From Escherichia phage 21, in sequence record M23775.1: a stretch of 1,688 nucleotides of DNA, one strand, 5' to 3'. The position numbers and the translations under genes were made by a program. Below the pieces are notes generated by a model. It was not told where the DNA came from and did no database searches. It saw only the letters and a list, made by a program, of their open reading frames with translations. Shown here piece by piece: positions 1 through 1,688 of the stretch. Numbering within the stretch: position 1 is the stretch's first letter; every line of letters starts with the position of its first letter.

Positions 1-12
1 GGGCGGCGACCT
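1..12 (+). other. cos cohesive-end sequence (12-nt 5' overhang of cosN); left terminus of a linear lambdoid virion genome
   Basis: Window begins GGGCGGCGACCT, identical to the lambda left cohesive end as I recall it. The following ~30 nt (cgcggtttttcactatttatgaaaatttt) also closely match lambda's cosN-proximal sequence, with a few substitutions. Confidence 0.8.
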
Positions 13-77
13 CGCGGTTTTTCACTATTTATGAAAATTTTTCAGGGAAAATCGTGTCGGTACTTCTCGAATATAAC

Positions 78-91
78 TTTTTGTTTTTTTT
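78..91. other. T-rich tract (TTTTTGTTTTTTTT), possible intrinsic bend / IHF-assisted bend region of cosB
   Basis: Directly visible run of 13 T in 14 nt. Lambda cosB has an IHF site (I1) between R sites, but I could not find a clean WATCAANNNNTTR match here, so the function is speculative. Confidence 0.25.
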
Positions 92-111
92 AATATTGCA
101 TCCGTAAAGGT

Positions 112-160
112 CCGACATGAAAGTGTCCGAAAATGCCTTTTTCTGGCGTTTTCATGTCGG
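112..160. repeat. 11-bp perfect inverted repeat (CCGACATGAAA ... TTTCATGTCGG) with a 27-bp spacer
   Basis: Arms at 112..122 and 150..160 are exact reverse complements. GTCCGA also recurs directly at 110..115 and 124..129. Candidate pair of oppositely oriented terminase-binding (R-like) sites. Confidence 0.7.
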
Positions 161-177
161 GCCTTGTATTTGATAAT

Positions 178-205
178 GGGTTGTTTTCATGGGGTTGTTT
201 TCATG
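178..205. repeat. perfect 14-bp tandem direct repeat (GGGTTGTTTTCATG x2) ending on the nu1 start codon
   Basis: 178..191 and 192..205 are identical. The ATG of copy 2 (203..205) is the nu1 start by homology; the ATG of copy 1 (189..191) is out of frame with it. Confidence 0.9.
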
Positions 206-751
206 AAGGTTAATAAAAAGAGGCTTGCCGAAATTTTCAACGTGGACCCGCGGACGATTGAACGCTGGCAGTCTCAGGGACTCCCTTGCGCCTCCAAAGG
301 TAGTAAGGGCATTGAATCTGTATTTGATACTGCCATGGCAATTCAGTGGTATGCGCAGAGGGAAACTGATATCGAAAACGAAAAGCTCCGCAAAGAACTG
401 GACGATTTGCGTGCGGCAGCGGAGTCAGATTTACAACCCGGCACCATTGACTATGAACGCTACCGGCTCACAAAAGCGCAGGCAGATGCGCAGGAACTGA
501 AAAATGCCCGTGAAGACGGAGTAGTGCTGGAAACTGAACTGTTTACCTTCATTCTGCAACGTGTGGCACAGGAGATTTCGGGGATACTTGTGCGTGTGCC
601 GTTGACATTACAGCGTAAATATCCGGACATTTCACCATCACACCTTGATGTGGTGAAAACTGAAATCGCGAAAGCCTCCAATGTTGCAGCTAAGGCCGGT
701 GAAAACGTGGGCGGGTGGATCGATGATTTCAGACGCGCAGAAGGCAGCTAA
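203..751 (+). CDS. nu1: terminase small subunit (lambda gpNu1 homolog), 182 aa
   Basis: The translation from 203 begins [12 protein letters not shown]..., against lambda Nu1 MEVNKKQLADIF..., and similarity continues over the full length (for example [28 protein letters not shown] against lambda [28 protein letters not shown]). Length is 182 aa against lambda's 181. Stop is TAA at 749..751. The ORF track shows the frame open from a TTG at 164, and ATG 176 is in frame, but homology supports ATG 203. Confidence 0.9.
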
Positions 752-790
752 GGGTGGATCGATGATTTCAGACGCGCAGAAGGCAGCTAA
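713..790. repeat. perfect 39-bp tandem duplication spanning the nu1 stop and the A start
   Basis: 713..751 and 752..790 are identical (GGGTGGATCGATGATTTCAGACGCGCAGAAGGCAGCTAA). Each copy carries an in-frame ATG for the A reading frame (723 and 762) and a TAA in the nu1 frame. Confidence 0.9.
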
Positions 791-1688
791 TGCAGCCGGT
801 GCGATAGCTACAGGGCTTTTATCTCTCATTATTCCTGTTCCACTGACGACAGTTCAGTGGGCCAATAAACATTATTACCTTCCTAAAGAGTCGTCTTATA
901 CCCCGGGGCGATGGGAAACACTGCCGTTTCAGGTTGGCATCATGAACTGTATGGGCAACGATCTGATTCGCACGGTTAACCTGATTAAATCTGCCCGTGT
1001 TGGTTATACAAAGATGTTGCTGGGAGTGGAGGCTTATTTTATTGAGCATAAATCACGCAACAGCCTTCTTTTTCAGCCCACGGACTCAGCTGCTGAAGAT
1101 TTTATGAAATCTCATGTTGAGCCAACGATAAGGGATGTTCCTGCATTGCTGGAGCTGGCTCCATGGTTCGGAAGAAAACACCGCGATAATACGCTCACCC
1201 TGAAGCGTTTTTCCTCCGGTGTGGGGTTCTGGTGTCTGGGTGGTGCGGCAGCAAAAAACTACCGTGAAAAATCCGTGGATGTGGTCTGTTATGACGAGCT
1301 TTCCTCGTTCGAACCGGATGTTGAAAAAGAGGGTTCGCCAACCCTGCTGGGGGATAAACGTATTGAGGGCTCTGTATGGCCAAAATCCATTCGCGGCTCG
1401 ACGCCAAAAATCAAAGGCTCCTGTCAGATCGAAAAAGCCGCTAACGAGTCGGCACACTTCATGCGTTTTTATGTGCCCTGTCCGCACTGTGGGGAGGAGC
1501 AGTATCTGAAATTTGGCGATGATGCCTCGCCTTTCGGTCTTAAGTGGGAGAAGAATAAGCCAGAAAGTGTTTTCTACCTTTGCGAGCATCATGGCTGTGT
1601 GATCCATCAGTCTGAGCTTGACCAGAGTAACGGGCGGTGGATCTGTGAAAACACGGGCATGTGGACCCGTGACGGCCTGATGTTTTTC
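723..1688 (+). CDS. A: terminase large subunit (lambda gpA homolog), 5' part; ORF runs off the 3' end of the window
   Basis: Hand translation in the frame with codon starts divisible by 3 gives ...[83 protein letters not shown]..., closely matching lambda gpA (..[35 protein letters not shown]...KSARVGYSKMLLGVYAYFIEH...[12 protein letters not shown]). The frame is open from 657 to 1688, checked codon by codon to 1112 and at 1470..1598 and 1680..1688. Candidate starts are ATG 723 (first repeat copy) and ATG 762 (second copy, giving an N-terminal length closest to lambda); ATG 681 is less likely. Start is therefore uncertain by 39 nt. Confidence 0.88.
987..1010 (+). other. Walker A-like ATPase motif KSARVGYT within the A homolog
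   Basis: Codons 987..1010 encode KSARVGYT, corresponding to lambda gpA KSARVGYS, which I recall as implicated in the packaging ATPase centre. Confidence 0.6.

What the first reader, a model, noticed from the sequence alone, without database searches (positions are those of the whole stretch)
713..790. Perfect 39-bp tandem duplication at the nu1/A junction
In lambda the A start codon lies inside the 3' end of nu1, a short overlap thought to couple translation, and the Nu1 C-terminus and gpA N-terminus form the holoenzyme interface. Here the 39 bp holding the nu1 stop and the A start is duplicated exactly and in frame (13 codons). If A starts at 723, it gains a 13-aa N-terminal repeat ([13 protein letters not shown] then [13 protein letters not shown]...). 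If A starts at 762, the nu1-A overlap is lost and replaced by a 10-nt gap. Perfect identity of the copies implies a very recent event, an assembly or cloning artifact, or selection.
Basis: partly seen in the sequence, partly recalled or inferred. Interest (0 to 1): 0.6.

Follow-up and report, generated by a model that had tools for sequence, protein, structure and literature searches.

The report
Pasted-overlap artefact in phage 21 record
The perfect 39-bp repeat is really in the sequence, but the window is the 1985 phage 21 left-end record with two overlapping annotated pieces pasted twice, so it is almost certainly a text artefact and not a biological duplication.

Summary
In detail: 713..751 and 752..790 are identical 39-mers covering the gene 1 (nu1-type) stop and the gene 2 (A-type) start. 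The window is otherwise base-for-base identical to GenBank X02501.1 (phage 21 left end, 1635 bp). It has the same first base, the same arbitrary last base, and a private T found in none of 67 other copies. Exactly, window = X[1..191] + X[178..737] + X[699..1635]. Both duplicated blocks start on the first base of an annotated "pot. SD-sequence" feature. They end on the last base of the gene 1 start codon and of the gene 1 stop codon. Only 1 of about 1600 possible placements per duplication does this. Neither junction has microhomology. Neither junction occurs in IMG/VR, GTDB genomes, JGI metagenomes, 5,426 complete E. coli genomes or PLSDB, whereas the single-copy junction is common. The best explanation is three overlapping annotated segments of one database record concatenated in silico. 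If it were physical DNA, gp1 would be unchanged and gp2 would be made from two equally good starts, wild type and +13 aa. Interest is low.

The parts
1..191 (+). Segment 1 = X02501 bases 1..191: the cos region (cosN end 1..12, R3 50..65, I1 74..86, R2 107..122, R1 150..166) through the gene 1 SD and its ATG (189..191)
   Evidence: Exact string identity window == X[1..191]+X[178..737]+X[699..1635]. cos sub-site coordinates come from the OL657228 annotation, which is colinear here.
192..751 (+). Segment 2 = X02501 bases 178..737: gene 1 from its annotated SD (X178) to its stop codon (X737)
   Evidence: X178 is the first base of the 'pot. SD-sequence' feature and X737 is the last base of the gp1 CDS.
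752..1688 (+). Segment 3 = X02501 bases 699..1635: gene 2 from its annotated SD (X699) to the end of the record (gp2 aa 1-309, partial)
   Evidence: X699 is the first base of the second 'pot. SD-sequence' feature. The window ends on the same base as X02501, inside gene 2.
713..751 (+). 39-bp repeat, copy 1 (X699..737): gene 2 SD, ATG 723, last 10 codons and TAA of gene 1
752..790 (+). 39-bp repeat, copy 2 (X699..737 again): gene 2 SD, ATG 762 (the wild-type gp2 start)
178..191 (+). 14-bp repeat, copy 1 (X178..191): gene 1 SD to ATG. This ATG (189) is out of frame with gene 1 and opens the mini-ORF MGLFS* (189..206)
192..205 (+). 14-bp repeat, copy 2 (X178..191 again): gene 1 SD to the true gene 1 ATG (203..205)
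203..751 (+). Gene 1, terminase small subunit (182 aa + stop), protein identical to X02501 gp1
   Evidence: Translation is identical. The exact protein is present in the public collection, named terminase small subunit / P21 prophage-derived TerS.
762..1688 (+). Gene 2, terminase large subunit, wild-type start, aa 1-309 (runs off the window)
   Evidence: Translation is identical to X02501 gp2. The exact 309-aa fragment is in the collection.
723..761 (+). Hypothetical 13-codon N-terminal extension of gp2 ([13 protein letters not shown]), present only if the first copy's ATG were used
   Evidence: The extended protein is not in the 15-billion-protein collection.

Best explanation
The repeat is a sequence-text artefact. 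The window is GenBank/EMBL record X02501.1 (phage 21 left end, genes 1 and 2), rebuilt by joining three overlapping annotated pieces end to end. The pieces are the cos/leader region through the gene 1 start codon (X1..191), gene 1 from its annotated Shine-Dalgarno to its stop (X178..737), and gene 2 from its annotated Shine-Dalgarno to the end of the record (X699..1635). Because the pieces overlap by 14 and 39 bases, the overlaps appear twice, as perfect tandem repeats. Shown: the exact decomposition, the descent from the X02501 text, the coincidence with annotation edges, and the absence of the junctions from nature. Inferred: the process itself. It could be feature-wise export or concatenation, transcription of a multi-panel figure, or deliberate editing. 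No phage is implied to carry the duplication, and real phage 21 has a single copy with a 29-nt gene 1/gene 2 overlap.
For: (1) The window equals X[1..191]+X[178..737]+X[699..1635] with 0 mismatches over all 1635 reference bases. (2) It shares the record's first base and its arbitrary last base inside gene 2; OL657228 simply continues past that point. (3) It carries T at X1371 (window 1424), where 67 of 67 other copies have C, including both later phage 21 records. It also carries A at X1353 and C at X1530, shared only with the other early phage 21 record, M81255. So it descends from that one 1985 record. (4) All four duplication edges fall on annotation landmarks of that record. The left edges are the first bases of the two 'pot. 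SD-sequence' features (X178, X699). The right edges are the last base of the gp1 start codon (X191) and the last base of the gp1 CDS (X737). For each repeat length, only 1 of about 1600 placements has both edges on such landmarks, a joint probability of about 4e-7 given the lengths and about 1e-9 unconditioned. (5) Two such events sit in one 1.6-kb record. (6) There is no microhomology at either junction, and the repeats cannot be slid by even 1 base. (7) Neither novel junction is found in IMG/VR, GTDB genome contigs, JGI metagenome contigs, 5,426 complete E. coli genomes or PLSDB plasmids, and a codon-degenerate version also finds nothing in IMG/VR. The single-copy junction is in at least 120 viral contigs, and the locus is in 663 E. 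coli genomes. 123 of 123 fetched loci have exactly one copy. (8) The extended gp2 protein is absent from the 15-billion-protein collection, while wild-type gp1 and gp2(1-309) are present.
Against: I could not identify the actual source of the 1688-base window, so the concatenation process is inferred from its product. The right edge of segment 1 (X191, the end of the ATG) is a natural landmark but not a feature boundary in the X02501 feature table, so a purely feature-table-driven export does not fully explain it. No raw reads or physical DNA can be examined here. A scarless synthetic construct designed from the X02501 text would give the same string.
Confidence: 0.88

Rival explanations
1. 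A deliberately engineered ('refactored' or decoupled) terminase operon, synthesised from the X02501 text. Overlapping parts were separated by duplicating the overlap, so that gene 1 (SD to stop) and gene 2 (SD onward) become self-contained cassettes. gp1 would be unchanged. gp2 would be translated from two starts: ATG 723, still overlapping gene 1, giving +13 aa, and ATG 762, 10 nt after the gene 1 stop, giving the wild-type protein.
For: The geometry is what overlap-duplication refactoring produces: parts run from SD to stop. The private variants of X02501 would be inherited if the DNA were synthesised from the database text. The gp1 protein is untouched and the wild-type gp2 ORF is intact. 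The two gene 2 starts have near-equal predicted SD pairing (-6.8 vs -7.3 kcal/mol) and accessibility (0.415 vs 0.429), so the design would express.
Against: There are no scars, restriction sites or spacers between the parts, and the redundant start codons (ATG 189, ATG 723) are not inactivated, as a designer would normally do (from my knowledge of T7.1-style refactoring). As a result the first duplication creates an out-of-frame mini-ORF (MGLFS*) in front of gene 1, and the second creates an unwanted N-terminal extension. No plasmid in PLSDB has the junction. Segment 1 needlessly includes the gene 1 SD and ATG.
Confidence: 0.06
2. Two genuine, very recent spontaneous tandem duplications in a phage 21 laboratory stock, each duplicating a translation-initiation region. 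They might be selected because they change terminase subunit expression or coupling.
For: The perfect identity of the copies fits a very recent event. Both duplications include an SD plus a start codon, so a common selective theme is imaginable. Tandem duplications without microhomology do occur (from my knowledge).
Against: The edges coincide to the base with a human annotator's 4-nt 'potential SD' calls and with codon ends. There is no microhomology at either junction. The rest of the sequence is identical to the 1985 record, including its private T1371 and its arbitrary end, yet that record, made from the same lineage, has neither duplication. The junctions are absent from every collection searched. 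A perfect 39-bp tandem repeat would be prone to loss by slippage or recombination (inference).
Confidence: 0.03
3. A read-assembly or sequencing artefact (mis-joined contigs or gel-reading overlap) in an independent sequencing of phage 21.
For: Assemblers and manual gel-reading merges can duplicate overlaps between adjacent reads or clones.
Against: An independent sequencing would not reproduce X02501's private variant or its exact start and end. Read or clone ends would not be expected to fall on SD-feature starts and codon ends twice.
Confidence: 0.03

Closest known systems
Phage 21 left end, GenBank X02501.1 (cos, gene 1, gene 2 aa 1-309)
   Same: All 1635 bases are identical, with the same start and end, the same private T at X1371, the same gp1, and the same gp2 from ATG 762.
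   Different: The window has X178..191 and X699..737 written twice in tandem (+14 and +39 = +53 bases).
Phage lambda nu1/A junction (NC_001416: nu1 191..736, A 711..2636)
   Same: The operon layout is the same: the small-subunit gene's 3' end overlaps the large-subunit start, by 26 nt in lambda and 29 nt in native phage 21. The C-terminal region of lambda TerS binds TerL (PMC9611059) and carries a specificity domain for TerL (PMC4856287).
   Different: Lambda and all natural phage 21-type loci examined have one copy of the junction. In the window the overlap is kept for ATG 723 and replaced by a 10-nt gap for ATG 762.
Overlap duplication in refactored synthetic phage genomes (T7.1-type design; from my own knowledge, not checked in the literature here)
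   Same: Overlapping genetic elements are made separable by writing the shared bases twice, and part boundaries follow the annotation.
   Different: Refactored designs normally add unique sites between the parts and silence the redundant start codons. Here the joints are seamless and both ATGs are intact. No physical construct is known, and PLSDB is negative.
Natural slippage or microhomology-mediated tandem duplications
   Same: Head-to-tail, perfect copies.
   Different: There is no junction microhomology, the edges sit on annotation landmarks, there are two events in 1.6 kb, and the junctions are absent from all natural relatives.

Membership tests
Phage 21 / lambda-type cos terminase operon | Lambda-type cohesive end and cosB (R3-I1-R2-R1) upstream of the small-subunit gene | tested here: met
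   Window 1..177 is identical to X02501/OL657228 1..177, which are annotated with cosN, R3, I1, R2 and R1.
Phage 21 / lambda-type cos terminase operon | Small subunit (gp1/Nu1) followed by large subunit (gp2/gpA) | tested here: met
   gp1 (182 aa) and gp2 (1-309) are identical to the X02501 products. The exact proteins are named terminase small / large subunit in public sources.
Phage 21 / lambda-type cos terminase operon | Single-copy junction with the large-subunit start inside the small-subunit 3' end | tested here: not met
   The window has two copies. All relatives have one. Native overlaps are X709..737 in phage 21 and 711..736 in lambda.
In-silico concatenation of overlapping annotated segments of one database record | Sequence identical to the parent record, including private variants and arbitrary record ends | tested here: met
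   0 mismatches to X02501. T at X1371 against C in 67/67 other copies. Same first and last base.
In-silico concatenation of overlapping annotated segments of one database record | Repeat boundaries coincide with annotation coordinates of the parent record | tested here: met
   The left edges are the SD feature starts X178 and X699, and the right edge X737 is the gp1 CDS end. The fourth edge, X191, is the end of the gp1 start codon, a landmark but not a feature-table boundary. Only 1 of 1622 and 1 of 1597 placements qualify.
In-silico concatenation of overlapping annotated segments of one database record | Blunt junctions, and the junction strings are absent from independent sequence data | tested here: met
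   No slidability at either junction. 0 hits in five collections, with positive controls.
In-silico concatenation of overlapping annotated segments of one database record | Documented provenance of the concatenation step | not testable with these tools
   The source of the window is not given, and the original 1985 paper is not in the held library.
Natural tandem duplication (slippage or illegitimate recombination) | Presence in physical DNA or independent isolates | tested here: not met
   The junction is absent from IMG/VR, GTDB genomes, JGI metagenomes, E. coli complete genomes and PLSDB. Physical DNA is not testable here.
Natural tandem duplication (slippage or illegitimate recombination) | Short direct repeat (microhomology) at the duplication endpoints (common but not obligatory) | tested here: not met
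   The period identity extends 0 bases beyond either repeat on both sides.
Refactored / decoupled synthetic operon | Overlap written twice so that each part is self-contained | tested here: met
   X178..737 and X699..1635 are each complete from SD onward.
Refactored / decoupled synthetic operon | Redundant starts silenced and/or scars or restriction sites between the parts | tested here: not met
   ATG 189 and ATG 723 are intact, and the joints are seamless.

The most novel reading that the evidence does not exclude
The string represents real DNA: a phage 21 derivative or synthetic terminase cassette in which the translation-initiation regions of genes 1 and 2 are each duplicated. The large terminase subunit would then be made as a mixture of the wild-type form and a form carrying a 13-residue N-terminal repeat, at the end of the protein believed to contact the small subunit. 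Gene 1 would be preceded by a 5-codon upstream mini-ORF that ends in an ATGA overlap with its start.
Probability: 0.07. Interest if true: 0.3.

Novelty: not a real feature. Interest (0 to 1): 0.06.

Why it matters
It matters mainly as data hygiene. A perfect in-frame duplication at a textbook translational-coupling site looks like an interesting recent evolutionary event, but here it is explained by how the sequence text was put together. Anyone using this string for gene calling, model training, or studies of terminase N-termini or gene overlaps would get three errors: a false 13-aa extension or repeat on the large terminase subunit, a false mini-ORF before gene 1, and a false loss of the gene 1/gene 2 overlap. 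The useful diagnostic is general. Multiple blunt, non-slidable perfect repeats whose edges coincide with feature coordinates of a parent record indicate concatenated overlapping features, not biology. If the DNA were real, it would offer a modest natural experiment on whether the nu1/A-type overlap and a free gpA-type N-terminus are needed for holoenzyme assembly.

Tried and rejected
1. Exact scans for the 39-bp-duplication junction in viral, genome and metagenome contigs found nothing. The 14-bp-duplication junction also found nothing, and neither did a codon-degenerate protein-level junction.

2. 44-mer junction megablast against complete E. coli genomes and PLSDB plasmids gave no match. A SNP within the junction 28-mer could hide a hit, but the alignments spanning the junction in the fetched loci also show no 39-base gap.

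3. An ancient two-copy arrangement with diverged copies is rejected. 123/123 loci have exactly one copy at 5 or fewer mismatches, and HSPs across the junction carry 0-5 gap positions, never 39.

4. The exact-protein look-up of the extended gp2 fragment, intended to locate the source record, did not find it.

5. Literature searches for the original sequence paper and for phage 21 gene 1/2 junction work were unproductive. The library holds only reviews that mention phage 21 in passing; one search failed on a term that was too short. I could therefore not test the idea that a multi-panel figure in the 1985 paper breaks at X191/X178 and X737/X699.

6. The minus-strand ORF 638..829, which spans both copies, was considered and dismissed. 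It is a mechanical ORF antisense to two well-established genes.

Full report
**1. The observation**

The window contains a perfect tandem repeat at 713..790: period 39, 2.0 copies, 100% matches, no indels. The two halves are identical strings. The period-39 identity does not extend one base beyond either end. An exact 39-bp tandem repeat is not expected by chance in 1688 bases (about 6e-21, my arithmetic).

- The small-subunit ORF ends at TAA 749..751.
- ATG 723 and ATG 762 are in frame, 13 codons apart.
- Translation from 723 reads [26 protein letters not shown]....
- From 762 the gap after the upstream stop is 10 nt.

It is GGGTTGTTTTCATG x 2 at 178..205, spanning the Shine-Dalgarno and start codon of the small-subunit gene.

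**2. What the window is**

The window begins with a lambda-type cohesive end. Megablast against phage records gives phage 21 as the best match (X02501.1, M81255.1, OL657228.1), covering 100% of the query in two pieces. X02501.1 is 1635 bp and the window is 1688 bp. The 53-bp difference equals 14 + 39.

A global alignment shows 0 mismatches to X02501 over all 1635 bases, with only two gaps, at the two repeats. The identity window == X[1..191] + X[178..737] + X[699..1635] was asserted as a string equality and passed.

**3. Descent from one database record**

The window starts at base 1 of X02501 and stops at its last base. That last base lies inside gene 2, and the complete genome OL657228 simply continues past it.

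The later phage 21 records each differ from the window at three positions. A census over the other fetched copies gives:

| Position | Window / X02501 | Other copies | Shared with |
|---|---|---|---|
| X1371 (window 1424) | T | C in 67 of 67 | no other record |
| X1353 | A | T in 59, A in 1 | M81255 only |
| X1530 | C | T in 55, C in 1 | M81255 only |

All three are third-position synonymous changes (my reading of the frame from ATG 762). The window is therefore the text of X02501 plus 53 bases, not an independent sequencing of a phage.

**4. The repeat edges are annotation edges**

In X02501 the feature table lists 'pot. SD-sequence' at 178..181 and 699..702, the gp1 CDS at 189..737 and the gp2 CDS at 709..>1635.

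- The 14-bp block is X178..191. It runs from the first base of the first SD feature to the last base of the gp1 ATG.
- The 39-bp block is X699..737. It runs from the first base of the second SD feature to the last base of the gp1 stop codon.
- For each length, only one placement out of 1622 and 1597 respectively puts both edges on such landmarks. An unconditioned estimate for both events is about 1e-9.

The 4-nt 'potential SD' calls are a 1985 annotator's judgement, so a mutational process has no reason to respect them. Neither junction has any microhomology.

The simplest description is three overlapping pieces pasted end to end: leader through the ATG, gene 1 from SD to stop, and gene 2 from SD to the record end.

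**5. Absence from nature**

| Query | Collection | Result |
|---|---|---|
| 39-bp junction GAAGGCAGCTAA\|GGGTGGATCGATG | IMG/VR viral contigs | 0 |
| 39-bp junction | GTDB species genomes | 0 |
| 39-bp junction | JGI metagenome contigs | 0 |
| 44-mer across the 39-bp junction | 5,426 complete E. coli genomes | no match |
| 44-mer across the 39-bp junction | PLSDB plasmids | no match |
| 14-bp junction | IMG/VR, GTDB genomes, JGI metagenomes | 0 in each |
| Codon-degenerate junction (AAKGGSMIS) | IMG/VR | 0 |
| Control: the locus | complete E. coli genomes | 663 of 5,426 genomes |

Every listed E. coli hit spans 262 bases, not 301. All 123 fetched loci have exactly one copy of the 39-mer at 5 or fewer mismatches, and alignments across the junction show 0-5 gap positions, never 39. 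The extended gp2 fragment is not in the 15-billion-protein collection, whereas wild-type gp2(1-309) and gp1 are.

Single-copy versions are the rule, and no two-copy version, perfect or diverged, was found.

**6. Best explanation**

The repeat is an in-silico artefact: overlapping annotated segments of X02501 were concatenated, and the overlaps appear twice. I put this at about 0.88.

What I cannot show is the process, because the window's source is not given and the 1985 paper is not in the held library. One loose end remains. X191 is the end of the start codon and not a feature-table boundary. A pure feature export would therefore need a rule such as 'upstream region through the start codon', or else a figure panel that ended there.

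**7. Rivals**

(a) A synthetic 'decoupled' operon designed from the X02501 text would give the same string and would inherit the private variants. However, the joints have no scars and the redundant ATGs are left intact. This creates an out-of-frame mini-ORF (ATG GGG TTG TTT TCA TGA = MGLFS*, 189..206) in front of gene 1 and an unwanted extension on gp2. PLSDB is also negative. About 0.06.

(b) Two real spontaneous duplications in a lab stock. This is contradicted by the annotation-edge coincidence, the lack of microhomology, and the fact that the record made from that lineage lacks them. About 0.03.

(c) A read-assembly error in an independent sequencing. This is contradicted by the inheritance of X02501's private base and its ends. 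About 0.03.

**8. How it would behave if it were physical DNA (inference, for completeness)**

gp1 is unchanged. The 39-bp copy carries the SD, spacer and ATG, so both gene 2 starts have the same local context.

| Gene 2 start | Predicted anti-SD pairing | Mean unpaired probability, -18..+10 |
|---|---|---|
| ATG 723 | -6.8 kcal/mol | 0.415 |
| ATG 762 | -7.3 kcal/mol | 0.429 |

(Values.) I would therefore expect a mixture of +13-aa and wild-type gp2. ATG 723 keeps the native overlap with gene 1. ATG 762 lies 10 nt past the gene 1 stop, close enough for termination-reinitiation.

The C-terminal region of lambda TerS binds TerL (PMC9611059) and holds a specificity domain for TerL (PMC4856287). 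That the partner site lies in the N-terminus of gpA is from my own knowledge of the lambda/21 chimera work, and I did not verify it here. An N-terminal repeat could therefore perturb holoenzyme assembly. A perfect 39-bp tandem repeat would also tend to be lost by slippage or recombination.

**9. Comparison with the known**

The locus is a member of the lambda/21 cos-terminase operon family. The cos sites, gp1 and gp2 are identical to phage 21. In lambda, nu1 is 191..736 and A is 711.., a 26-nt overlap. Native phage 21 overlaps by 29 nt. The one defining layout feature the window does not meet is the single-copy overlapping junction, and that departure is what the artefact explains.

**10. Verdict**

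The gene-level reading is correct. The biological interpretation is not supported. The feature is not real biology, and interest is about 0.06. The most novel reading not excluded is a real engineered or mutant phage 21 terminase cassette, with probability about 0.07 and modest interest if true.

Noticed in passing
window 178..205: A second perfect tandem repeat (GGGTTGTTTTCATG x 2) covers the gene 1 SD and start codon. The first ATG (189) is out of frame and opens a 5-codon mini-ORF, MGLFS*, whose TGA overlaps the true gene 1 ATG (ATGA at 203..206). It shares the annotation-edge property of the 39-bp repeat and was the key clue to the artefact.
   Followed up: yes
window 1424 (X02501 position 1371): X02501 and the window have T (codon TGT, Cys), where all 67 other copies have C (TGC), including M81255 and OL657228. 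This is probably a 1985 sequencing error or a private stock variant. It is synonymous.
   Followed up: partly
L003 (M81255.1) 1258..1259 = window 1145..1146: M81255 reads TA where the window, X02501, OL657228 and 64 other copies read AT. This is probably a transposition error in the M81255 record.
   Followed up: partly
window 600..900 versus complete E. coli genomes: The phage 21-type terminase junction is very common as a prophage. It is present in 663 of 5,426 complete E. coli genomes, often at 100% identity (for example Nissle 1917, O104:H4 and ATCC 11775), with up to 3 places per genome.
   Followed up: no
protein collection, cluster 1: The 90%-identity cluster that holds the gp2(1-309) fragment has an unrelated 421-aa Alistipes putredinis glycoside hydrolase family 57 protein as its representative. 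This looks like a clustering or look-up oddity in the database and has nothing to do with the window.
   Followed up: no
window 164..751 and P0022: An in-frame TTG at 164 extends the gene 1 ORF upstream. It is 195 aa in the window, partly because of the 14-bp insertion. One public annotation (E. coli S88, 190 aa) also uses a start upstream of the accepted 182-aa gp1 start.
   Followed up: no
window 705..772 versus X02501 691..719: The predicted mean unpaired probability of the gene 2 initiation region is 0.23 in the native single-copy context and 0.42 for both starts in the duplicated context. This is a model output only, from a 160-nt folding window.
   Followed up: no
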